Of a DNA stretch of 64,000 bases, positions 5,939 through 64,000 are shown one piece after another; position 1 is the stretch's first letter, and each line of letters opens with the position of its first letter. The stretch comes from an uncultured virus (IMG/VR IMGVR_UViG_3300031788_000008). Lineage: Duplodnaviria; Heunggongvirae; Uroviricota; Caudoviricetes. The position numbers and the translations under genes are program-made. The notes under the pieces were generated by a model, which worked only from the letters and a program-made list of their open reading frames with translations, was not told the DNA's origin and did no database searches. Location of the stretch: the IMG/VR virus record IMGVR_UViG_3300031788_000008, positions 1 to 64,000 of that record; one strand, 5' to 3'.

Positions 5939-8900
5939 ATGGGCAGCATACCAGGACTAACACAGGCAGAAAATAACGCGCTTTTGTGGCCGATCAAAGC
6001 CAAAGGACAAGTGAATCGTTTAAATCCTCTTGGGGATCCTACGATTGAGCAATACTACCACTCTGCCATGGAGCAAGGTCGTTTCCTAGAAAAAAGTATA
6101 GCTGACGCTAATAACTGGATTCTTCAGAAAAAACAACAAGCCTTAAAGTACATTCAAACCTACACCCATATGAATTCTTTAGCTGTAGACGGACAGCTCC
6201 AACACGGTCCTCGTGCGGTTAAATACATCGCGGACTCTATCAGTATCCTAAAAACTGTAGCCCAATTTGAAAAAGAAATTACTGGACTTGCTCAAGCAAT
6301 TCAGCAGAACCTTACTATGCTTCTGTCTATTGAACAAAGCATGCTGCAAATGGTTCAGACTAATTCAAATGCTTTAGCAAATTTGCTGAACAATGTTTGT
6401 AACTGGGGACTGCCAGCTCGTCCATCAATCCCCAATCTTTTACCTGAGGGTATGTGGAATTGGAACGGTTTTAATTTTGCTCCGTTAGCTAATTTTGCTA
6501 AAGCGTTTGCTACGCCTCCATCATTCAATTTCAATTTTTCTTTCAGTCAATGTTCGTTGTCTATTCCTGGATTATTTAATTCAGGGGCATTGGGGAATAA
6601 TATTCCGATATCTGTTACGACTAATAGTGGATTAATGCTCGGTACGGCGCAGTATATTCCACCTTTAGGGGGTTCTTCATCCTCAGCACCAGGGGCATCC
6701 CCAGTTTATGGACCTACATTTAATCCTAATACATCAATGAATGGAGCGGTACCCGACCCCCATACTATTGTTGATAATTATTTAATGCCCGCAGCTACTT
6801 ACATGAACAACATTGTATCCATTACACCGGTGTTGAGAGGGGATACAGTAGAACCTACAGATGCTGATTACTCAAACCCCAATTATACAGTTAGGGCAGC
6901 AGGGTTGCGCAAAGACCTAATTCATTTCATCACATTAGGTAATATCGTAGCCAATAATTATGATCCGTTTATAACCAGCGCGTGGATTTTATACCTCAAT
7001 GCTACGCACATCGGGCGGGGTGGCAATTGGTTACCAAATTTTGAATCCGTGTACGAACAATACATTCAACCGTCCATCACTTATTTGCAGAACACTCCTG
7101 TGCCTTACAATAATGTCAGTGGAAATGGTGTAGAGTACATGAGTATTTGGGGAACTACAGTAGCATACCAAGTAAATGACGTGGTAACTTACAATGGAAA
7201 TTTGTATATAGCTCTGCAAATCAATACAGGGTATGAACCAGACACGAATCCCACATACTGGCAGACACCTATTCCTCTAAATACTGTGTATGAAAACGCC
7301 CCAAACAACATACCTCTGATCGCTACCCTTAACAGCTTAAGTTTAGGAGATAGAAATACGCTGCTGTGGAAACTTTCATATATCGAAGCTTCTTTATTAG
7401 GTTACACCAGAAATCAAACATGGGATGCTTATCAAAACGCCAATTACCTTTCGAATGTAACTGGATCAGATTTGGATTACACACCTACGGCTATTTCAAC
7501 TACAACTAGCACTTTGATTTTAGGAGAGGGTGTAGCAGATTTTCCTACGCCTATTACATTCCCTAGTTCTATGACAGTGCAATTGAACGCTGTCATAGCA
7601 GCCGCAACTATAAATATTCAAAACGATGTTGGATATCTATCAGTTCGTTTGGGGAACCGGTACACTTACAATCAGTTTGCACAAGCAACCTTAGTCGATA
7701 GATTTAGCCAGTTTTGGCGCGATTTTGCTACCAATCTTAAAATTCTTCTGGCTCAAGATCCTTATCTTGTTCAATTTGTAATCACATATTTTGGTACATT
7801 GAACGGAGCCTTAAACCCCCTAGCTGATGCTACGGCATATAACGCCCTACAAGTAGACACTTCGAGTAGAAATCGATCCTGGACGCCTGGAACCCCCTTG
7901 CTGAGTATCCCAATCGCACCTATAGTATCCTACACTGACAATGGTTCTCCCCCATCTACAGGGGGTTGGATCAATCCTCCAATAGATTTTGACCCTAATA
8001 CTTTTCTTGCACGCCCCGATGTACAGGGACAACCTATTCCAGTGCAGATGGCCATGCTACGTACAAACATAAGCTACGCCGCCCTACAAACTTTCAAAAA
8101 CAACTTCCAAAATGAAATTGCGGGACAAATTGCAAATGCTCAAAGTATCTTGGCACAATCCCAACAAATAGGGTTTCATGTGACGGCTGTGAATGATACC
8201 ACAACCGTACCCTCGGGGGCGAGTATTCCTGTTCTATTTGATGACAGTACAAATTCAGCTTTGGGGGATTACGATTACACGGGAAATGTAACTAATCCCA
8301 CTACTTTTACAATTCAAGCCGCAGGTGATTATGCTGGTTATGGACAATTGGATTGGGTTGCGACAGTTGCCGGAACTTATAATGTTACGATAAATCAAAA
8401 CGGTGTTGGAATATTTACTACATCTGTAACTACGACATCAGCCAATGCAAGTTTAACATTGCCATTTTCGTTTGCGGGTAGTTTTGCTCAAGGAGATGTG
8501 GTGCAAGTTATCGCCAATCAAGATAATGGGGTACCCCAAAATGTTATACCCCAGAGTTTTTTTAGCCTGGTTCAAACAGGAGCTCAAACTACTAGCAGCG
8601 GTTCTCCTCCTGTAACTCCTAGTGATACTACCACCATGTTTACTATGGTTAATTCCTTACCCACTTGGGTAAGCAGTCCCGTACCCGCGGCTACGGTTGT
8701 ACAAGTTATTCAACCAAATGGAAATGTAGTACCAGTGGATCCATTTGTTCCTGGTGTTTCTTTAATTCAAATCACGAACCCTAATGTGGTTATGATTACT
8801 GTAGATACTACACATCATTTCTTTATGGGGCAATTGATAGTATTTTCTGGGTTTGATGCAGCCAGCTTTGTTAATAATCAAGTCGCTCTTATTACCGGAA

Positions 8901-9295
8901 TTACAACAAATACATTTACAGCTACCTTTATTTCATATACTCACGCGAGTTACGGTCCAGCATCAGACACAGGGAATGTGTATTTAGCGATTGATGATTC
9001 CGGATCAATTTTATCTCCGAATCCTGATGGAATTACAATCGCTTCCGCAGCTGCGGGGAGTATGGTAAGTGTTAATACGATTTACGGAGAATCGGTGCAG
9101 ATACCAGGTCTTACTTTAACTGTTGGACAACCTGTTTATGCGGGGTTGAATGGTGTATTGACTCAAGACTATACAACTCTCATCACTCAAGTAGGGTGGG
9201 TAATGTATATAGGAATGGCCATACCTGGAACTTTAACATTACCGCAGACTGATACTATACTTTACGAGCCGCACATTCCAACAATATATATATAG
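5939..9295 (+). CDS. virion structural protein with CBM5/12-like module and beta-sandwich domains
   Basis: 1118 aa; WGTTVAYQVNDVVTYNGNLYIALQINTGYEPDTNPTYW is a CBM5/12-like pattern; C1q/BclA-like segment FTIQAAGDYAGYGQL. Confidence 0.6.
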   Translation: MGSIPGLTQAENNALLWPIKAKGQVNRLNPLGDPTIEQYYHSAMEQGRFLEKSIADANNWILQKKQQALKYIQTYTHMNSLAVDGQLQHGPRAVKYIADSISILKTVAQFEKEITGLAQAIQQNLTMLLSIEQSMLQMVQTNSNALANLLNNVCNWGLPARPSIPNLLPEGMWNWNGFNFAPLANFAKAFATPPSFNFNFSFSQCSLSIPGLFNSGALGNNIPISVTTNSGLMLGTAQYIPPLGGSSSSAPGASPVYGPTFNPNTSMNGAVPDPHTIVDNYLMPAATYMNNIVSITPVLRGDTVEPTDADYSNPNYTVRAAGLRKDLIHFITLGNIVANNYDPFITSAWILYLNATHIGRGGNWLPNFESVYEQYIQPSITYLQNTPVPYNNVSGNGVEYMSIWGTTVAYQVNDVVTYNGNLYIALQINTGYEPDTNPTYWQTPIPLNTVYENAPNNIPLIATLNSLSLGDRNTLLWKLSYIEASLLGYTRNQTWDAYQNANYLSNVTGSDLDYTPTAISTTTSTLILGEGVADFPTPITFPSSMTVQLNAVIAAATINIQNDVGYLSVRLGNRYTYNQFAQATLVDRFSQFWRDFATNLKILLAQDPYLVQFVITYFGTLNGALNPLADATAYNALQVDTSSRNRSWTPGTPLLSIPIAPIVSYTDNGSPPSTGGWINPPIDFDPNTFLARPDVQGQPIPVQMAMLRTNISYAALQTFKNNFQNEIAGQIANAQSILAQSQQIGFHVTAVNDTTTVPSGASIPVLFDDSTNSALGDYDYTGNVTNPTTFTIQAAGDYAGYGQLDWVATVAGTYNVTINQNGVGIFTTSVTTTSANASLTLPFSFAGSFAQGDVVQVIANQDNGVPQNVIPQSFFSLVQTGAQTTSSGSPPVTPSDTTTMFTMVNSLPTWVSSPVPAATVVQVIQPNGNVVPVDPFVPGVSLIQITNPNVVMITVDTTHHFFMGQLIVFSGFDAASFVNNQVALITGITTNTFTATFISYTHASYGPASDTGNVYLAIDDSGSILSPNPDGITIASAAAGSMVSVNTIYGESVQIPGLTLTVGQPVYAGLNGVLTQDYTTLITQVGWVMYIGMAIPGTLTLPQTDTILYEPHIPTIYI

Positions 9296-9298
9296 TAA

Positions 9299-10435
9299 TC
9301 AGTATTCATATCCAATTAGAGTAAAAGTGACATTTGCGGTTGTTGTATCACTCAACTGACTGATACCAATTTCTTGTCCCCCGGCAATCTCTAAACCATC
9401 TGGAATACTAATCTCTCCGTAGCCCGCGTTGTTTGTTACACCAGAAGTACTTAGTAACAATCCAAGAACAACCGGAGAAGAAGCATTTACAGTGCTCGCT
9501 GATCGTATACGCAATTTCACATATTCTACAACAGAACTAGGTTCTTGAATTGACGCGCAAAAAGACTGTATTCGTAAAGTTTTCCCAGTTGTCACAGTAT
9601 AAGTAGTAGCTGGAGAACTAACGGTTCCTGCGCGATTGGCACCAACATTAATCAAAGTCTCGGATGTAGTGGTAGCGATAGAATCAATAAACCATACGCA
9701 ATAAACCCTTCCTGTATCTTTGTATTCTATTACAAAAAGATTTTTATTTGTATCTAAAAATAAAGGTTCCAGTACATTACTAGCGTTTTGCCCCATCGCT
9801 ACTGTGCCTGTAGGTGTGGTTACGGATGCTCCAGCGGTGTATTGGGTTCCTCCCCCACCCCCTGAATCTACGATTACATGCTGAGCACTGGGAAAAACAA
9901 CTGTGGCGTTTAAACCGGCCGCTGCGGGTTGAGATACAATAAGATCGCCGTCACCATTCACTGAGATATTAAGCATAGCCCCGGCAGCATCCACTCCAGC
10001 GACTAAAACGGGATTAACTGTAGTTGCACTTGTACCCGCAGCTTGAATTCCCTGCACTAAAGGATCAGCCCAAACAGCCGTTGCATTACCTGGTTGCGAA
10101 ATGGGGATTTGTCCAGCATGGGTTAGGATTCCAATAATTGGTATGCCATTGATCTCTGTGGCGTTGATGACACCAGAGCCAGTAGGGCCTAAAGTAGCAC
10201 CAGAGCCTACAACTAGATTCGCTGTGGTGTTTATCCCACTGAGAATTCCATTAAATGCTATGGATCCCGTGGGGGAAATGAGGGTAGGGTCAATAATTCC
10301 CAACGCATTTAAAGAGACGATTTTACCTGAATCTGCAACGCCGCTACTGGTGACTACCACCCCCACTAGCTGTTCTTTTGACGGACCGCCAGGAACAGAT
10401 TGGGTTATCGAGAAAGTTTTATAAACATCAGGCAC
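9299..10435 (-). CDS. putative virion/tail-fibre-like protein
   Basis: 378 aa G/S/T/V-rich ORF with GTG start after a GAGGA RBS; C-terminal beta-sandwich ending TLIGYEY. Confidence 0.5.
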   Translation of the reverse strand: MPDVYKTFSITQSVPGGPSKEQLVGVVVTSSGVADSGKIVSLNALGIIDPTLISPTGSIAFNGILSGINTTANLVVGSGATLGPTGSGVINATEINGIPIIGILTHAGQIPISQPGNATAVWADPLVQGIQAAGTSATTVNPVLVAGVDAAGAMLNISVNGDGDLIVSQPAAAGLNATVVFPSAQHVIVDSGGGGGTQYTAGASVTTPTGTVAMGQNASNVLEPLFLDTNKNLFVIEYKDTGRVYCVWFIDSIATTTSETLINVGANRAGTVSSPATTYTVTTGKTLRIQSFCASIQEPSSVVEYVKLRIRSASTVNASSPVVLGLLLSTSGVTNNAGYGEISIPDGLEIAGGQEIGISQLSDTTTANVTFTLIGYEY

Positions 10436-56186: not shown

Positions 56187-56262
56187 GCTCTTGTAGCTCA
56201 GTGTAGAGCATTCCGTGTGCAACGGAAGGGTCGGATGGTTCAACTCCATCCCAAGGGCTCCA
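56187..56262 (+). tRNA. atypical tRNA-like element (identity unclear; Cys/Ala-like pseudo-tRNA)
   Basis: Acceptor GCTCTTG/CAAGGGC plus T-CCA; D stem GCTC/GAGC; anticodon stem TTCCG/CGGAA with loop TGTGCAA; T loop TTCAACT on a 6-bp stem. Confidence 0.65.
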
Positions 56263-60354: not shown

Positions 60355-60960
60355 ATGAATTTCGATTATACCCCAAAAGCATCAGGACCAAAGAAAGCAA
60401 TTGGCCTATCTGTTACACAAACCATCAATAATGACGGCACAGCTTCAACAAACGCAATTTTTCAAGACAGCGATGGATTACCGATCACTGCCGCTCAGTT
60501 CAACAATTTATACCCAGTAGGTGTAGCGCTTCCAACGGTTACCGCTGGCGACAGTACACCAGGCCCTTCAGCATTTAAAGTTGTAGCAGTTACTCCTCCA
60601 ACTGCAAGCACTGCGGTCCCTGGGGCCTTTGTTGTAGCTACAACTTCCGCTGTTACACCACCTTCAGTTCCACCACCAACTGGCTGGGGACAAGCTGTGG
60701 ATTTTACTTGCTCAATCGCTAGTGGATTGGTAGGACAATCTACAACCCAATCTGTGGATGCCGGAACATTGAGTGTTGTCAGCAACTCCAACAATCCAGC
60801 AGCGTTCACCGTATCAACAAACAGCAGCGGTGTAGGGCTGGTGGCAGCGGGCGTGCCAGCTACTACGATTAAAAGTGCGTTTACTTCACCTGCTAAGCCT
60901 ACGATTACCCCTGGATATCAACATTCTCCAGATCCATCAACAGGCCGTAAGATTTATTAG
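60355..60960 (+). CDS. hypothetical Ig-like/Thr-Pro-rich protein
   Basis: 201 aa; AAGGAG RBS. Confidence 0.65.
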   Translation: MNFDYTPKASGPKKAIGLSVTQTINNDGTASTNAIFQDSDGLPITAAQFNNLYPVGVALPTVTAGDSTPGPSAFKVVAVTPPTASTAVPGAFVVATTSAVTPPSVPPPTGWGQAVDFTCSIASGLVGQSTTQSVDAGTLSVVSNSNNPAAFTVSTNSSGVGLVAAGVPATTIKSAFTSPAKPTITPGYQHSPDPSTGRKIY

Positions 60961-61016
60961 GCACAATTATTATGCCGGCCCAAAACACAGTCATGTAATA
61001 GAATTTGCACAACTAT

Positions 61017-61052
61017 AAAAGCCGTCAACTAAAAATTGACGGCTTTTGTTTT
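61017..61052 (+). terminator. intrinsic terminator (possibly bidirectional)
   Basis: AAAAGCCGTCAA-CTAAAAA-TTGACGGCTTTT then GTTTT. Confidence 0.85.
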
Positions 61053-61116
61053 GAAAAGAGATAAATGGAATAAATCAGTATTATATATTAAGTCCGGCCC
61101 GCCATAATCTGATTAC

Positions 61117-61428
61117 CAAAAAACGCCGTGAAGCCACGCCCTTCAGGCTGGGGATATAAGGCGGAAAGTGCTTGTATTAGATCGCAGGTTGTGGTATTTT
61201 TATTGTATGGCACTCGAAGGCTACAAAATAAGCATTGAAAGTCTTGCGAAAACCAAGCTGGCTAAATCAATGCTGCATTCGGGAATTATCGTCGCCTCGG
61301 GATACATGGAGTCGTTAAACGACTGCGGACAGTGTGTAAGTCTTGCGAAAGCAAGCAGCGCTGGTTGAAACAGTTAAGGGCGGCTTTGCCGCCTAGAATC
61401 CCTCGCCTTTAGGCGTGGGGAGTATCAA
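61117..61428 (+). mobile_element. miniature internally deleted IS200/IS605-family (tnpB-type) element
   Basis: Preceded by TTAC and ends in TCAA; left hairpin GAAGCCACGCCCTTCAGGCTGGGG; right end GAATCCCTCGCCTTTAGGCGTGGGGAGTATCAA; TnpB-like fragments MALEGYKI and LAKTKLAKSM; omegaRNA-like 3' region. Confidence 0.8.
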
Positions 61429-61449
61429 TAGATAGGGAGAGAAACAAAT

Positions 61450-61674
61450 ATGAATTTTCAAGAGCGTGTTATAACAGAAAAAAGAGAACTAGACAATAAA
61501 CTGGATAAATTGCAAGCCTTTATAAATGAAGGAACGGTTTATGCACAGCTTCCCAAAGAGGAACGTTCAAGATTAGCGAGACAGGCAACTGTCATGATTG
61601 AGTACTCTCAAATTCTCGCTGATCGTATCGCAAAATTTCAAGGGTATGATCCAACTAAAATTTGGTCTTTGTAA
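61450..61674 (+). CDS. small conserved phage coiled-coil protein (crAss001_48-like)
   Basis: FQERVITEKRELDNKLDKLQAFI...LARQATVMIEYSQILADRI pattern; GGGAG RBS. Confidence 0.65.
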   Translation: MNFQERVITEKRELDNKLDKLQAFINEGTVYAQLPKEERSRLARQATVMIEYSQILADRIAKFQGYDPTKIWSL

Positions 61675-61681
61675 ATAAATC

Positions 61682-61710
61682 TTGACAAATATTCCAACTA
61701 CCAGTATTAT
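61682..61710 (+). promoter_or_regulatory. sigma70-type promoter of the tRNA operon
   Basis: TTGACA (61682-61687), 17-nt spacer, TATTAT (61705-61710). Confidence 0.85.
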
Positions 61711-61725
61711 ACTCATAAGGCATTT

Positions 61726-61809
61726 ATGAACAACATTACCCTATCACCGTCATTGTCGTTGCTGGCTTATTACCTTAGCTTGCCACGCGGCGGTGTGTTC
61801 AACGGGTAA
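61726..61809 (+). CDS. attenuator leader peptide MNNITLSPSLSLLAYYLSLPRGGVFNG (27 aa)
   Basis: TAAGG RBS then ATG 61726; 12 of codons 6-19 are Leu, Ser or Tyr; stop TAA 61807-61809 lies inside the antiterminator hairpin. Confidence 0.8.
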   Translation: MNNITLSPSLSLLAYYLSLPRGGVFNG

Positions 61810-61864
61810 ATTTTAACCCGATTCGAATTAACCGCCGCCCCGAAATGGGCGGCTTTTGTTTTTT
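61745..61864 (+). promoter_or_regulatory. transcription attenuator (1:2, 2:3 antiterminator, 3:4 terminator)
   Basis: 1:2 CACCGTC(61745-51)/GGCGGTG(61789-95); 2:3 GCGGCGGT(61787-94)/ACCGCCGC(61831-38) with inner CGGGT/ACCCG; 3:4 GCCGCCC(61834-40)/GGGCGGC(61847-53) followed by TTTTGTTTTTT. Confidence 0.8.
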
Positions 61865-61869
61865 GTGGT

Positions 61870-61899
61870 AAGCCCAGACTTCTAGTCTGGGTAGATGAC
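61870..61899. repeat. isolated IS200/IS605-end-like (REP-like) hairpin
   Basis: AAGCCCAGACT-TCT-AGTCTGGGTAGATGAC resembles the AAGCCC...GGGTAGTTGAC terminal hairpins of this family. Confidence 0.5.
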
Positions 61900-61903
61900 C
61901 TTT

Positions 61904-61996
61904 GCCTAGAACGCAGATACGGTTGGCTGCATCCGGCTGTAACCCGGAATTTGGCTAGTCCAGACAATGGGAGTTCGAATCTCTCTCTAGGCACCA
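61904..61996 (+). tRNA. tRNA-Tyr(GTA)
   Basis: Acceptor GCCTAGA/TCTAGGC, A73, CCA; anticodon arm TCCGG-CTGTAAC-CCGGA; long variable arm; TTCGAAT T loop. Confidence 0.9.
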
Positions 61997-62009
61997 AAAT
62001 TTTATAGGG

Positions 62010-62291
62010 GTGATTATGGAAAAATTCATGTCCAGATCGGAACAGAAACGAGTAGCTTCAATGAAGGGAGAGCCCGCGCCTTCATTTGAGATTAGAGTTG
62101 AATACGATGATGGCGAATCGGTTTGGCATGATGGTAAAAGTCCTTTTTGTACACGCAGGGATCGCCCAATGGGAATGTACGCTATGATGCCGGATGACAC
62201 GCAGCGGCCTTTAAATATAGGGTACATGCGTGTGAGTGAAATGCAAGGATTGGAAAAACTCCTCAATGAAATTTTAAATTTTAAGAAATAG
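62010..62291 (+). CDS. hypothetical protein embedded in the tRNA array
   Basis: About 90-aa ORF exactly filling the Tyr-Leu spacer; GGGGTG RBS-like sequence before ATG 62016. Confidence 0.55.
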   Translation: MIMEKFMSRSEQKRVASMKGEPAPSFEIRVEYDDGESVWHDGKSPFCTRRDRPMGMYAMMPDDTQRPLNIGYMRVSEMQGLEKLLNEILNFKK

Positions 62292-62295
62292 TTTT

Positions 62296-62380
62296 GCGGC
62301 TGTGGTGGAATGGGCAGACACACCATCTTGAGGGGGTGGCGTCGAAAGATGTGAGAGTTCAAATCTCTCCAGCCGCACCA
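62296..62380 (+). tRNA. tRNA-Leu(GAG)
   Basis: Acceptor GCGGCTG/CAGCCGC, A73, CCA; CCATC-TTGAGGG-GGTGG; long variable arm. Confidence 0.93.
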
Positions 62381-62382
62381 AG

Positions 62383-62507
62383 TTTAGAGTCAAACCGTAG
62401 TTGTGAGGTTGCAACGGGGAGCTAACACAATGCTGCTCGATAAGAAGCGAAAGCTTCCGCTCGCGGGCGTAAGGTCGGGGTGCAGGCGTTGATCCGTTGC
62501 CTCTAAA
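62383..62507 (+). ncRNA. unidentified structured RNA between two tRNAs
   Basis: GC-rich spacer closed by TTTAGAG/CTCTAAA, with GCAACGG/CCGTTGC and GAAGC-GAAA-GCTTC helices. Confidence 0.5.
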
Positions 62508-62515
62508 ATAAGTTT

Positions 62516-62601
62516 GCCGGGTTGGTGGAATTGGGAGACACTCTGGACTTAGGATCCAGCGGTTAACAGCCATGCAGGTTCGACCCCTGTACTCGGCACC
62601 A
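62516..62601 (+). tRNA. tRNA-Leu(TAG)
   Basis: Acceptor GCCGGGT/ACTCGGC, A73, CCA; CTGGA-CTTAGGA-TCCAG. Confidence 0.93.
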
Positions 62602-62608
62602 AAAATTT

Positions 62609-62699
62609 GCGCGGGTGATGAAACTAGGGAGACATGCAGCGTTCAGACCGCTGTGCCCTTAAACAAGGCGTGCAGGTTCAATTCCTGTTCCGCGCACCA
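62609..62699 (+). tRNA. tRNA-Leu(CAG)
   Basis: Acceptor GCGCGGG/TCCGCGC, A73, CCA; CAGCG-TTCAGAC-CGCTG. Confidence 0.93.
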
Positions 62700-62712
62700 A
62701 TTTTGTAGATAG

Positions 62713-62803
62713 GCCAGAATGGCGGAATTAGGGAGACGCGCACGGCTCAAGCCCGTGTGAGCCTAAAAAACTCGTGGGGGTTCGATTCCCCCTTCTGGCA
62801 CCA
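62713..62803 (+). tRNA. tRNA-Leu(CAA)
   Basis: Acceptor GCCAGAA/TTCTGGC, A73, CCA; CACGG-CTCAAGC-CCGTG. Confidence 0.93.
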
Positions 62804-62992
62804 AAAATAAGTATTACATTTTATGGGCATATTTATTTGGCAGTGTATCAACTGTAAAAAGTTAGTAAAAACTTCCATGGATTTTTCTATCAATGATCGT
62901 CCAATATGTTTTGAATGATGATGAAGTAGCAGAATTTTTTGCTAGACTTTCAAAAATCAATTTTAAAAAACAATAACTATTTAAGTATCTTA

Positions 62993-63023
62993 AAATATCC
63001 ATTTTCAGTGTTTCCGATGTATA
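62993..63023 (+). promoter_or_regulatory. 31-bp promoter-like direct repeat (copy 2 of 3)
   Basis: AAATATCCATTTTCAGTGTTTCCGATGTATA, continuing as TATAAT; identical to 63240-63270. Confidence 0.75.
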
Positions 63024-63030
63024 ATTGGGT

Positions 63031-63240
63031 ATGGATATCACACTAAAAATTAAAAGGATCAGTGTCTTAACTGGTCACGGTACTGATAGGATTTACCTTT
63101 ATTTTGATCTGCCTACAACATTTCCTGACTGGCCGCTTGAGGAATGTTCCGCAGTCATCGAAGCGACTAAAGGTTACGGCGTTGCCTGGGTAAAAGAAAA
63201 TTTCCACCTAGAACCAGATGTAGTTTCGTCCTGTTTCTGA
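63031..63240 (+). CDS. hypothetical protein
   Basis: About 70-aa ORF between the two identical repeats. Confidence 0.55.
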   Translation: MDITLKIKRISVLTGHGTDRIYLYFDLPTTFPDWPLEECSAVIEATKGYGVAWVKENFHLEPDVVSSCF

Positions 63241-63270
63241 AATATCCATTTTCAGTGTTTCCGATGTATA
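63240..63270 (+). promoter_or_regulatory. 31-bp promoter-like direct repeat (copy 3 of 3)
   Basis: Identical to 62993-63023, continuing as TATACT. Confidence 0.75.
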
Positions 63271-63280
63271 CTAGGGATGT

Positions 63281-63556
63281 ATGAGTAAACCACCAATAAG
63301 CGAGAAACCTCCTTGGGTTCAAGGGGCTAAAAACACCAAGAAACGAAAGAAGAAAGACAACGATGCGATTCTAAATCCTGTATACGACGCAAAACTTGTG
63401 GAGAAATTGTGCGGAAACGCACGAAGGATAGTTCTTCAAGAAGGCAACGGGATGCTAACAAATGGTGTTCCAACGGAGTTATATTGGCACATCAATGGGT
63501 GCTCTGCTTGTGAAGAACTTCGCTCCAAGGCTAAACCACCAGAGATACCGTACTGA
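63281..63556 (+). CDS. hypothetical protein
   Basis: 91 aa, basic N-terminus, HxxxCxxC. Confidence 0.55.
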   Translation: MSKPPISEKPPWVQGAKNTKKRKKKDNDAILNPVYDAKLVEKLCGNARRIVLQEGNGMLTNGVPTELYWHINGCSACEELRSKAKPPEIPY

Positions 63557-63596
63557 GGTGTAACGCATCATGGCCGGGACTGTGATCAGGAGGAAT

Positions 63597-63884
63597 ATGA
63601 ACAAGCCGATTATTCTCATTGTAGCACTGAGATACGAAATTGATGGTGATTTAGAAGATGCGAAACGTATGTTGTCTAGAGCTTATGCTCCGCGTGAGGG
63701 AAGAGTTGAAAGTGCAAGTAGCCACAAAGCTACAGCAACATGCATATCAATGCAGGCTGAAATTGAGGAGATGCAAGAAGATATGTGTGAAGTTAGGAAT
63801 GGTGTTGGATATGCCTACCTACAGGTCCCTTACCCAGCGGGGGCAGCTGGCGTGCAGCAACAAAAGCAGAGGAAGAAGAAATAG
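63597..63884 (+). CDS. hypothetical protein
   Basis: AGGAGG RBS before ATG 63597 inside ORF 63570..63884. Confidence 0.45.
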   Translation: MNKPIILIVALRYEIDGDLEDAKRMLSRAYAPREGRVESASSHKATATCISMQAEIEEMQEDMCEVRNGVGYAYLQVPYPAGAAGVQQQKQRKKK

Positions 63885-64000
63885 ACAAAGAAAAGATCAT
63901 CAAAGCGATCAAAGAGATCGATGATGAATGTCGGAGGCGGTAATGAAAAGAGAACTCACTGAGAAGTTTTGCCAATTCGTCAACTACCCTGAAAGCGAGG

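What the first reader, a model, noticed from the sequence alone, without database searches (positions are those of the whole stretch)
61682..62803. Phage tRNA operon controlled by a ribosome-stalling attenuator whose control codons match the encoded tRNAs (candidate tRNA-depletion sensor / inducible anti-defence system)
Seen in sequence: a TTGACA-N17-TATTAT promoter, an RBS, and a 27-codon ORF too short for the ORF track. Codons 6-19 are CTA TCA CCG TCA TTG TCG TTG CTG GCT TAT TAC CTT AGC TTG (6 Leu, 4 Ser, 2 Tyr). Next come three overlapping helices: 1:2 CACCGTC/GGCGGTG, a 2:3 antiterminator GCGGCGGT/ACCGCCGC enclosing the leader stop, and a 3:4 terminator GCCGCCC/GGGCGGC with a U-tract. Downstream are tRNA-Tyr(GTA) and Leu GAG/TAG/CAG/CAA. 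The leader's Leu codons (CTA, TTG, CTG, CTT) and Tyr codons map onto these five anticodons; TTA is absent from the leader and Leu(TAA) is absent from the array. Established: this is the trp/leu/thr/pheM attenuator architecture, which senses shortage of aminoacyl-tRNA and normally controls biosynthetic or synthetase genes; host defences destroy tRNAs (PrrC, PARIS AriB, retron Ec78 PtuAB acting on tRNA-Tyr, VapC toxins) and phage tRNAs can rescue infection. Inference: when Leu/Ser/Tyr tRNAs are cut or uncharged, the ribosome stalls before segment 2, the antiterminator forms, and replacement tRNAs are transcribed, giving a self-limiting feedback loop. I know of no described leader-peptide attenuator on a phage tRNA array.
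Basis: partly seen in the sequence, partly recalled or inferred. Interest (0 to 1): 0.95.

Follow-up and report, generated by a model that had tools for sequence, protein, structure and literature searches.

The report
Leader-peptide attenuator gating phage tRNA genes
A huge phage places a tiny test gene, written in leucine and tyrosine codons and wired to a switchable transcription stop, in front of its leucine and tyrosine tRNA genes, so it probably makes these tRNAs only when ribosomes read those codons slowly.

Summary

- **Second module.** The same 75.8-kb phage record has a Pro/Met-rich leader ahead of its tRNA-Pro/Met block, outside the window.
- **Relatives.** In five related huge phages (127-463 kb) I found 17 such modules in all. 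Leu/Tyr, Pro/Met/Phe, Val/Ala/Gly/Asp/Cys/Glu and Thr/Ile/Gln leaders each precede the matching tRNA block.
- **Statistics.** Each of the 16 leaders tested is enriched for its own block's amino acids (P 4e-6 to 0.018). The true leader-to-block pairing is the best of 24, 24 and 720 permutations.
- **No separate promoter.** Terminators lie 8-55 nt before the first tRNA in 12 of the 17 modules; the others were not measured or have longer gaps.
- **Folding.** The window's leader shows the classic energy ladder: 1:2 plus terminator when free, and antiterminator when segment 1 is covered.

Structural support is strong in 5 of 17 modules and weaker elsewhere. The anti-defence role is untested, and there is no tRNA-Ser to match the Ser codons.

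Seven literature searches found no published account. Earlier agents of this scan noted the same design on other phage DNA.

The parts
61682..61710 (+). Sigma-70-type promoter (-35 at 61682-61687, 17-nt spacer, -10 at 61705-61710)
   Evidence: 11 of 12 matches, the only + strand site in 60500-64000; one of 4 exact sites in 75,792 nt. Paralogous promoters head the other modules.
61717..61720 (+). Weak Shine-Dalgarno-like purine run at the predicted 5' end of a very short 5' UTR
   Evidence: Read. 15 nt lie between the -10 element and the ATG.
61726..61809 (+). Leader ORF of 27 codons. 8 of 26 residues after the start are Leu or Tyr. Codons 9-17 are the effective control codons.
   Evidence: Enrichment P 8e-3. 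Orthologous ORFs in L004, L005, L031 and L034. Ribosome scan.
61745..61751 (+). Segment 1. It pairs with segment 2 in untranslated RNA (anti-antiterminator), extended by 61727-61732 with 61796-61801.
   Evidence: Minimum-energy fold.
61787..61795 (+). Segment 2 (codons 21-24). It pairs either with segment 1 or with segment 3.
   Evidence: (duplex -18.0 kcal/mol, 9 of 300 shuffles as good).
61803..61820 (+). Small hairpin (5 bp) holding the TAA stop codon in its loop
   Evidence: By eye, a similar hairpin around the stop is present in the relatives' sequences.
61831..61838 (+). Segment 3. This is the 3' strand of the antiterminator and overlaps the terminator's 5' arm.
   Evidence: antiterminator state -28.3 to -31.4 against terminator state -22.1 kcal/mol.
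61834..61865 (+). Intrinsic terminator (7 G-C pairs, 6-nt loop) plus T tract
   Evidence: -14.5 kcal/mol. It starts 24 nt after the stop codon.
61873..61891 (+). Perfect 8-bp hairpin between terminator and tRNA-Tyr. Its role is unknown; it may be a processing site.
   Evidence: Read; not tested.
61904..61996 (+). tRNA-Tyr (GTA), 93 nt, long variable arm, encoded CCA
   Evidence: (44.5 bits).
62010..62291 (+). ORF of about 91-93 aa between tRNA-Tyr and tRNA-Leu, with no Pfam family
62296..62380 (+). tRNA-Leu (GAG)
62516..62601 (+). tRNA-Leu (TAG)
62609..62699 (+). tRNA-Leu (CAG)
62713..62803 (+). tRNA-Leu (CAA)

Best explanation
This is a ribosome-mediated (leader-peptide) transcription attenuator that gates a phage tRNA operon.

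Proposed mechanism:
- A host-type promoter at 61682 starts a transcript whose first 84 nt of coding sequence is a 27-codon test ORF.
- If the ribosome reads the Leu and Tyr codons 9-17 slowly, it covers segment 1 and leaves segment 2 free. Slow reading would occur when the cell has too little charged tRNA-Leu or tRNA-Tyr for these codons.
- Segment 2 then pairs with segment 3, the terminator cannot form, and RNA polymerase runs on into tRNA-Tyr and the four tRNA-Leu genes.
- If decoding is fast, the ribosome reaches the last codons and covers segment 2, the terminator forms, and transcription stops near 61860.
- Untranslated RNA also terminates, through 1:2 plus 3:4.

The result is a negative feedback loop that holds the supply of exactly those tRNAs that the block encodes. 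The phage and its relatives carry one such module per tRNA block, each written in that block's amino acids.

Shown: the anatomy, conservation, codon-to-array covariation and alternative folds. Inferred: stalling as the signal, the direction of regulation, and the biological purpose.
For: 1. Anatomy and folds in the window.
- The free RNA folds as 1:2 + stop hairpin + terminator.
- Segments 2-4 alone prefer the antiterminator (-31.4 kcal/mol) over the terminator state (-22.1).
- Terminator probability is 1-21% with the A site at codons 9-17 and 98-99% at codons 18-28.
- That switch scores 0.81, and 0 of 50 shuffles reach it.

2. A second module in the same record (G000 70121-70341 = L002 6121-6341).
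- It has a paralogous promoter and a 22-codon ORF with 5 Pro and 5 Met including the start; 9 of the 21 residues after the start are Pro or Met (P 4e-6).
- It has an antiterminator (-26.4) and a terminator state (-18.4), followed by tRNA-Pro CGG and TGG, then two tRNA-Met.

3. Relatives found through the 5'-3' exonuclease and an RNA-ligase-like gene, plus further regions.
- There are 17 modules in six genomes.
- All 16 tested are enriched for their own array's amino acids (P 4e-6 to 0.018).
- The true leader-to-array assignment is the single best of 24 (G001), 24 (G005) and 720 (G001 + G003) permutations.

4. Selection by geometry alone (terminator at most 60 nt before a tRNA, ORF ending at most 35 nt before it).
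- This gives 16 ORFs at 13 sites. At 10 sites an ORF is enriched at P < 0.02.
- One further site scores 0.076 under the automatic definitions, and 9e-4 with the internal ATG.
- The 2 overlapping ORFs in other frames give P about 0.5.

5. Antiterminator complementarity.
- In 13 of 17 modules, at most 9 of 300 shuffles pair the ORF with the terminator's 5' arm as well as the real sequence does.
- In those 13 the partner always lies in the last third of the ORF.
- By eye, in the Val/Ala class the two strands differ between genomes yet stay complementary.

6. Constant geometry and no room for another promoter.
- The terminator starts 18-27 nt after the stop in 12 of 16 modules and 0-10 nt after it in the 4 Pro/Met modules.
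- It ends 8-55 nt before the first tRNA in the 12 modules where this was measured and is short. Two other modules have gaps of 335 and 605 nt.

7. Codon level.
- None of the 33 Leu codons in the five Leu/Tyr leaders is TTA, and none of their arrays has tRNA-Leu(TAA).
- Every one of these leaders has at least one codon for each of the four Leu isoacceptors.
Against: - No experiment, no 3'-end data and no ribosome data exist.
- The equilibrium switch is strong in only 5 of 17 modules, is 0.29 in one, and is at most 0.09 in 11. In those, the terminator is much more stable, and an antiterminator could only act kinetically.
- The truncated-transcript test is not significant for the window's leader taken alone (19 of 60 shuffles as good). 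It is significant only in sum: 3.67 against 0.98 +/- 1.04, with 0 of 60 shuffles reaching it.
- If the T tract is included in the fold, the minimum-energy structure with a ribosome at codon 10 or 13 keeps the terminator. The equilibrium result therefore depends on where the transcript is cut.
- The two modules of the AT-rich phage G003 show no significant antiterminator (156 and 248 of 300 shuffles as good).
- The 3-6 conserved Ser codons of each Leu/Tyr leader have no tRNA-Ser in those arrays.
- Two geometry-selected sites (L023 3534, L031 10715) have no enriched ORF.
- The 405-kb relative G004 yielded no module.
- In the Pro/Met class the terminator starts 0-10 nt after the stop. A ribosome waiting at the stop would itself block the terminator, so the outcome for unstalled ribosomes is unclear.
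- Orthologous modules are not independent. The independent units number about 4 classes plus 2 variants.
Confidence: 0.85

Rival explanations
1. The promoter, short ORF and terminator form an independent small gene (a micropeptide or a small RNA) that merely lies next to the tRNA genes. The tRNAs would be made from leaky read-through or from upstream transcription, without codon-specific control.
For: - The C-terminal part of the Leu/Tyr leader is conserved at both the amino-acid and the nucleotide level in 4 of 5 orthologues.
- RNA-library contigs start near 61399-61405, upstream of the 61682 promoter, so some transcription may enter from upstream.
- In 12 of 17 modules the terminator dominates at equilibrium.
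Against: - This does not explain why the ORF's amino-acid content follows the tRNA block behind it in every class.
- It does not explain why the terminator's 5' arm is complementary to the end of the ORF in 13 of 17 modules.
- It does not explain why blocks with only 8-23 nt between terminator and first tRNA have no promoter of their own.
- Outside the composition-biased core and the structural segments, the peptides are poorly conserved between classes.
Confidence: 0.06
2. The module senses general translation capacity, or transcription-translation coupling (any ribosome slowdown or loss), rather than the supply of particular tRNAs. The codon bias would be a by-product.
For: - Any stall in codons 9-17 gives the same fold switch in the model.
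- Ser, Thr and Gly codons without a matching tRNA are frequent in several leaders.
- In the Pro/Met class, Pro-Pro and Pro-rich runs are intrinsically slow to translate (recalled; abstract of PMC8129111 seen in the listing).
Against: - Four classes with four different compositions each match their own block, and the true assignment is the best of 720 permutations.
- TTA is avoided where tRNA-Leu(TAA) is absent, although TTA is 30-40% of Leu codons in G000 and G003.
Confidence: 0.06
3. The whole pattern is a chance juxtaposition of a promoter-like site, a short ORF and the terminator of the upstream gene.
For: The counts of promoter-like and terminator-like sites in 60500-64000 are not above shuffles.
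Against: - The pattern is conserved in five other genomes at 61-74% protein identity of the flanking gene.
- It recurs at other arrays.
- Fold z is -2.73.
- The permutation tests reject chance pairing.
Confidence: 0.01

Closest known systems
Leader-peptide attenuators of enterobacterial amino-acid operons (trpL, leuL, hisL, thrL, pheL, and the multivalent ilvGMEDA and ilvBN leaders). This description is recalled textbook knowledge; the Rfam models were tested here.
   Same: - The order of parts: promoter, short ORF rich in the relevant codons, then an intrinsic terminator.
- Three mutually exclusive helices (1:2, 2:3, 3:4), with segment 2 at the end of the ORF.
- Several amino acids are sensed by one leader, as in thr (Thr + Ile) and ilv. 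The Thr/Ile/Gln leaders of the relatives resemble thrL in composition.
   Different: - The regulated genes are tRNAs, not biosynthetic enzymes, so the loop senses and corrects tRNA supply rather than amino-acid supply.
- The element is viral.
- One genome holds a paralogous set of leaders, each rewritten for its own tRNA block.
- There is no sequence or structure homology to the Rfam families: Trp_leader scores 17.8 bits against a cut-off of 41, and no other leader family matched this stretch at E <= 10.
pheM leader of the pheST operon (attenuation of phenylalanyl-tRNA synthetase genes). Recalled, not read here.
   Same: A leader-peptide attenuator that controls a component of the decoding apparatus for the very amino acid it senses.
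   Different: It controls a synthetase rather than tRNA genes, it is cellular, and it senses a single amino acid.
T-box riboswitches (recalled)
   Same: They sense tRNA status and control read-through of a terminator by an antiterminator.
   Different: T-boxes bind uncharged tRNA directly and need no translation. No T-box match was found at E <= 10, and here a conserved translated ORF is present.
Leaderless polycysteine short ORFs acting as Cys-responsive attenuators in mycobacteria (10.1101/834739; listing and abstract only)
   Same: Very short ORFs with almost no 5' UTR act as amino-acid-specific sensors. Some modules here have only 9-19 nt between the -10 element and the ATG.
   Different: Those control Cys-related operons in bacteria. 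They are not tRNA genes and not phage elements.

Membership tests
Ribosome-mediated (leader-peptide) transcription attenuators, as a mechanistic class | A promoter directly upstream of a short translatable ORF | tested here: met
   (11 of 12 matches at 61682). (ORF 61726-61809); the best -35/-10 pair scores at least 9 of 12 in 14 of 17 modules.
Ribosome-mediated (leader-peptide) transcription attenuators, as a mechanistic class | The ORF is enriched in codons cognate to the regulated product | tested here: met
   16 of 16 leaders are enriched (P 4e-6 to 0.018), and the true assignment is the best of 24, 24 and 720 permutations; selection by geometry alone gives 10 of 13 sites at P < 0.02.
Ribosome-mediated (leader-peptide) transcription attenuators, as a mechanistic class | An intrinsic terminator between the ORF and the regulated genes, which lack a promoter of their own | tested here: met
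   The terminator lies 8-55 nt before the first tRNA in the 12 modules where this was measured and is short. Two other modules have gaps of 335 and 605 nt.
Ribosome-mediated (leader-peptide) transcription attenuators, as a mechanistic class | An antiterminator that excludes the terminator, with its 5' strand placed where a ribosome finishing the ORF masks it | tested here: met
   Window. Family: 13 of 17 modules are significant. The equilibrium switch is strong in only 5 of 17.
Ribosome-mediated (leader-peptide) transcription attenuators, as a mechanistic class | An anti-antiterminator (1:2) that forms in untranslated RNA | tested here: met
   Shown for the window only. Not examined systematically in the other modules.
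Ribosome-mediated (leader-peptide) transcription attenuators, as a mechanistic class | Read-through rises when the cognate charged tRNA is limiting | not testable with these tools
   This needs reporter or in vitro assays. RNA-library contigs only show that pieces bridge the terminator.
Rfam leader families (Trp_leader RF00513, Thr_leader RF00506 and the other leader models) | A score at or above the family's gathering threshold | tested here: not met
   Trp_leader scores 17.8 bits against 41 at 61754-61860 (E 3.4). Nothing reached gathering thresholds in the whole record.
T-box riboswitch | A match to the T-box covariance model | tested here: not met
   No T-box match at E <= 10 in 61000-64000.

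The most novel reading that the evidence does not exclude
Huge phages may carry a modular network of sensors that resolves individual tRNA isoacceptors.
- Every tRNA block is switched on by ribosomes stalling on the very codons that block decodes.
- The paralogous leaders were retuned by rewriting their control codons whenever a block's content changed.
- The main purpose is an inducible counter-measure to loss of host tRNA, whether from anticodon nucleases of defence systems or from phage-induced host tRNA decay. Replacement tRNAs are made only on demand and only for the isotypes under attack.
Probability: 0.3. Interest if true: 0.95.

Novelty: new variant of a known kind. Interest (0 to 1): 0.88.

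Why it matters
- **A new target for an old mechanism.** Leader-peptide attenuation has been a textbook mechanism for about fifty years, but only for amino-acid biosynthesis genes and a synthetase operon (recalled). Here the same logic appears to regulate tRNA genes themselves, in viruses, as a family of retuned modules.
- **How phage tRNA genes are controlled.** It would give the first account of how the large tRNA sets of huge phages are controlled. It would also explain why those tRNAs are sorted into blocks by amino acid.
- **A testable question.** Do phage tRNAs serve codon-usage matching, or rescue from tRNA depletion? The leaders are natural reporters of which codons the phage finds limiting.
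- **Easy to test and reuse.** The modules use host-type promoters and intrinsic terminators, so they can be tested in ordinary laboratory bacteria. They could also be reused as codon-specific sensors of decoding speed.

Tried and rejected
- **Similarity to deposited phages.** Megablast found no match and blastn only two 87-nt tRNA matches, so there is no cultured relative.
- **Small neighbouring genes as probes.** The search for related loci with the two small neighbour proteins found no relative.
- **Rfam.** Only tRNAs reach threshold. The weak Trp_leader and Thr_leader hits are far below the cut-offs.
- **18-nt degenerate motif from the leader's 3' end.** It gave 11 stretches. Three are real leaders (two already held, one new, L034) and 8 are chance matches inside unrelated ORFs.
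- **Gap-length analysis of class alignments.** The alignments are too ragged near the stop codon to use.
- **Truncated-transcript pairing metric.** It is not individually significant for the window's leader (19 of 60 shuffles as good).
- **Metatranscriptome contigs.**
  - Records of four RNA libraries bridge the terminator into tRNA-Tyr: 61399-62093, 61399-62032, 61405-62156 and 61728-61969.
  - Contigs cannot show 3' ends, strand or level, and DNA carry-over is not excluded.
  - Stretches without cover (most of 62398-62763) mean nothing.
- **G004 (405 kb).** The detector found no module in six fetched regions. I did not look further.
- **Look-ups of this scan's notes by place.** They returned nothing for this genome or for look-alike stretches.
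- **Chance juxtaposition and T-box readings.** Both were rejected for the reasons given under rivals and membership.
- I repeated the step from coordinates.
Full report
**What the window is.** The window is the first 64,000 nt of a 75,792-nt IMG/VR virus record. CheckV estimates it as 24% complete, so the phage is of roughly 300 kb. The record carries ten ARAGORN tRNA genes sorted by amino acid:
- Ala at 56187;
- Tyr and four Leu at 61904-62803;
- two Pro at 70394-70751;
- two Met at 72949 and 74849.

Neighbouring genes include a 5'-3' exonuclease, an RF-1-domain protein, a NADAR protein, a TnpB-like protein and an RNA-ligase-like protein with no Pfam hit. No deposited phage is similar at the DNA level.

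**Check of the observation.**
- the promoter (11 of 12 matches);
- the 27-codon ORF 61726-61809, with the listed codons;
- helices 61745-61751 with 61789-61795, 61787-61794 with 61831-61838, and 61834-61840 with 61847-61853;
- the T tract, and the five tRNAs.

The untranslated leader folds as 1:2 + a small hairpin around the stop codon + the terminator. Its energy is -46.6 kcal/mol, z -2.73, with 0 of 200 shuffles as stable.

Segments 2 to 4 taken alone prefer the antiterminator (-31.4 kcal/mol, or -28.3 with the terminator's 3' arm held open). The terminator state, with segment 2 masked, is -22.1.

I slid a 28-nt ribosome footprint along the ORF. The terminator's probability is 1-21% with the A site at codons 9-17 and 98-99% from codon 18 on. 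The contrast between codon 13 and codon 24 is 0.81, and 0 of 50 shuffles of the upstream part reach it.

One caveat applies. If the T tract is included, the minimum-energy fold with a ribosome at codon 10 or 13 keeps the terminator, helped by pairing of the 5' end with the T tract. That pairing could not exist at the moment of decision, but it shows that the equilibrium numbers depend on where the transcript is cut.

**A second module in the same phage.** Only four exact TTGACA-N16-18-TATWAT sites exist in the 75.8 kb, all on the + strand: 10512, 61682, 70121 and 74595. The last three lie 222, 273 and 254 nt before a tRNA gene.

The one at 70121 lies outside the window, at L002 6121. Its spacer resembles that of 61682. 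It is followed by:
- a 22-codon ORF (70250-70318) with 5 Pro and 5 Met including the start;
- a hairpin with a T-rich tail (70322-70341);
- tRNA-Pro CGG and TGG, and further on the two tRNA-Met.

Nine of its 21 residues after the start are Pro or Met, against 6.8% expected (P 4e-6). Its antiterminator (-26.4 kcal/mol) beats the terminator state (-18.4). Its switch score is 0.97, with 0 of 50 shuffles reaching it.

**Relatives.** The exonuclease and the ligase-like protein retrieved 16 loci from huge-phage contigs of 58-405 kb. I fetched 13 further tRNA regions of five of these records. A motif scan added one leader from a 463-kb contig.

Orthologues of the Leu/Tyr leader precede Tyr/Leu arrays in four other genomes: L004, L005, L031 and L034. 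Orthologues of the Pro/Met leader also contain Phe, and they precede Pro/Met/Phe arrays in three (L004, L005, L031).

Other tRNA blocks have leaders of their own:
- Val/Ala/Gly/Asp/Cys/Glu-rich leaders precede Val-Ala-Cys-Asp-Gly-Glu blocks (L003, L019, L021, L030).
- Thr/Ile/Gln-rich leaders precede Ile-Thr-Gln blocks (L020, L013).
- The AT-rich phage G003 has a Leu/Tyr/Trp/Ser/Cys-rich leader before Leu-Leu-Trp-Tyr-Ser-Ser-Ser-Cys.
- G003 also has a Pro/Arg/Thr/Ile/Glu/Val-rich leader before Pro-Pro-Glu-Ile-Arg-Val-Thr-Arg-Arg.

L003 is 99.8% identical to this record up to position 61428 and then continues into the Val/Ala block. The present phage, or a strain of it, therefore very probably has that module too.

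**Statistics.** Against the amino-acid frequencies of 85,072 residues of long ORFs in these loci, all 16 leaders tested are enriched for the amino acids of their own block (binomial P 4e-6 to 0.018; the window's leader has 8 of 26, P 8e-3).

Within the complete genome G001, the true pairing of four leaders with four blocks is the best of 24 permutations. The same holds in G005. For G001 plus the two G003 modules it is the best of 720.

To avoid my own choice of ORFs, I also selected by geometry alone: a terminator ending at most 60 nt before a tRNA, and an ATG ORF of 10-50 codons ending at most 35 nt before the terminator. This gave 16 ORFs at 13 distinct sites:
- At 10 sites an ORF is enriched at P < 0.02.
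- One site (L031, Leu/Tyr) gives 0.076 with the longest ATG and a block definition that runs on into the next module. It gives 9e-4 with the internal ATG.
- Two sites (L023 3534, L031 10715) have no enriched ORF.
- The two overlapping ORFs in another frame at true sites give P about 0.5.

Orthologues are not independent. The independent evidence is about four classes plus two variants.

**Codon level.** TTA is 30% of 1,549 Leu codons in this record's long ORFs, but 0 of 6 in the leader, and the block lacks tRNA-Leu(TAA). In G003, TTA is 40% of 247 Leu codons and 0 of 4 in the leader, and the two tRNA-Leu(TAA) genes lie elsewhere.

Across the five Leu/Tyr leaders, 0 of 33 Leu codons are TTA. 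Each leader holds at least one codon for every one of the four isoacceptors encoded behind it. The same spread over isoacceptor codons is seen for Ala, Thr and Pro in the other classes (by eye).

**Geometry and structure across the family.** The terminator begins 18-27 nt after the stop in 12 of 16 modules and 0-10 nt after it in the four Pro/Met modules. It ends 8-55 nt before the first tRNA in the 12 modules where this was measured and is short. Two modules have gaps of 335 and 605 nt.

In 13 of 17 modules, the best duplex between the ORF and the terminator's 5' arm is matched by at most 9 of 300 shuffles. In those 13 it lies in the last third of the ORF and ends between 21 nt before the stop codon's first base and 2 nt past it. 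The four exceptions score 16, 57, 156 and 248 of 300.

By eye, in the Val/Ala class the two strands differ between genomes but remain complementary, which is what a functional antiterminator predicts.

The equilibrium switch is strong in 5 of 17 modules, is 0.29 in one, and is at most 0.09 in 11. The sum is 5.14 against -0.04 +/- 0.43 in shuffles, with 0 of 50 reaching it.

A test on transcripts cut before the terminator's 3' arm is significant only in sum: 3.67 against 0.98 +/- 1.04, with 0 of 60 shuffles reaching it. Where the terminator is far more stable than the antiterminator, control would have to be kinetic, as it is held to be in the classical systems (recalled).

**Expression.** Contigs from four peat metatranscriptome libraries cover the leader, the terminator and tRNA-Tyr in one piece. 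This is compatible with read-through, but it cannot show ends, strand or amounts. Some contigs start upstream of the 61682 promoter.

**Mechanism and purpose.** The best reading is the classical attenuator logic applied to tRNA genes. Slow decoding of the block's own codons leaves segment 2 free, the antiterminator forms, and the block is transcribed. Fast decoding, or no translation, leads to termination.

The loop would hold the supply of each tRNA set near a set point. Whether it answers host tRNA cleavage by defence nucleases, host tRNA decay during infection, or simply the phage's own codon demand cannot be told from sequence.

Two points do not fit neatly:
- The conserved Ser codons have no tRNA-Ser partner in this lineage. 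More distant relatives (G003, G004) do place Ser tRNAs beside Leu.
- In the Pro/Met modules the stop and the terminator are so close that a ribosome pausing at the stop would itself block the terminator.

**Comparison with what is known.** The element works like the trp, leu, thr and ilv leaders and like pheM. It is not a homologue of any Rfam leader family, and it is not a T-box.

Seven full-text searches returned no account of a leader-peptide attenuator on tRNA genes, cellular or viral. I saw listings and abstracts only, plus one irrelevant passage of PMC3082878. Subscription journals are largely outside that library.

This scan's own notebook shows that earlier agents described the same design on other phage genomes and also found no publication. 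One of those notes was later checked and stood. I reached my reading before that look-up. Those notes are not independent evidence.

**Verdict.** The attenuator interpretation is supported by conservation, recurrence and covariation, with confidence 0.85. The counter-defence purpose is open. It is a new variant of a known kind of control, of high interest.

Noticed in passing
L002 6121-6341 (= record 70121-70341, outside the window): A second attenuator module: a paralogous promoter, a 22-codon Pro/Met-rich ORF, an antiterminator and a terminator, ahead of tRNA-Pro CGG and TGG and two tRNA-Met. Its 5' UTR is about 95 nt long and holds two extra hairpins.
   Followed up: yes
L002 10595-10848 (= record 74595-74848): The fourth consensus promoter is followed by about 220 nt with a long-range helix. 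There is no Met-rich ORF and no Rfam match. tRNA-Met follows. This may be a different kind of leader or an unknown RNA.
   Followed up: partly
L002 8560-8940 (= record 72560-72940): About 380 nt with no convincing ORF, GC-rich and hairpin-rich by eye, lie directly upstream of tRNA-Met 72949. Neither Rfam nor ARAGORN matches.
   Followed up: no
L002 about 6566-6643: By eye, a tRNA-like stretch with a GGG anticodon loop (Pro) and an aberrant T arm lies between the two tRNA-Pro genes. Neither ARAGORN nor Rfam (E <= 1) calls it. Relatives have tRNA-Pro(GGG) at this place.
   Followed up: no
window 61428; L003 13953: A 58-kb contig is 99.8% identical up to 61428 and then continues into a Val/Ala leader and block instead. 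RNA-library contigs of three runs show a 255-nt loose end at the same base. This suggests strain-level rearrangement at the borders of tRNA blocks, or a chimeric assembly.
   Followed up: partly
window 62093-62770: One RNA-library contig joins 62093 to 62770, skipping 676 nt that hold three tRNA-Leu genes and the start of the fourth. This points to a variant with a shorter Leu block.
   Followed up: no
L013 and L017 5953-6026; L020 2703 and 2914: Relatives carry tRNAs with a CTA anticodon, which ARAGORN labels 'Pyl'. These are candidate amber suppressors. Three of the four Pro/Met leaders end in TAG, so suppression would carry ribosomes through the terminator.
   Followed up: no
L002 5392-8568: Genes interleaved with the tRNA blocks: NADAR domain (E 2e-20), RF-1 domain (E 9e-30, a small release-factor-like protein) and an RNA-ligase-like protein without a Pfam hit that is conserved in 12 related loci. 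A TnpB-like gene follows at 9087-10223. Together these look like a translation-repair neighbourhood.
   Followed up: partly
window 62990-63021 and 63237-63268: A 32-nt direct repeat (2 mismatches) lies just upstream of two small ORFs. There are only these two copies in the record. It is probably a duplicated phage promoter or operator.
   Followed up: partly
window 61873-61891: A perfect 8-bp hairpin lies between the terminator's T tract and tRNA-Tyr. It is absent from relatives whose tRNA starts 8-23 nt after the terminator.
   Followed up: no
L003 16249-16356 and L020 6439-6528: By eye, the Val/Ala leader and the Thr/Ile/Gln leader end in similar C-terminal residues and similar bases after the stop. 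Terminators of the Leu/Tyr and Thr/Ile/Gln classes are also alike. The leaders look like paralogues whose control codons were rewritten.
   Followed up: no
L010, L024-L029 (405-kb relative G004): The tRNAs are less tidily sorted by amino acid, and my detector found no leader-plus-terminator module. The system may be absent there or built differently.
   Followed up: partly
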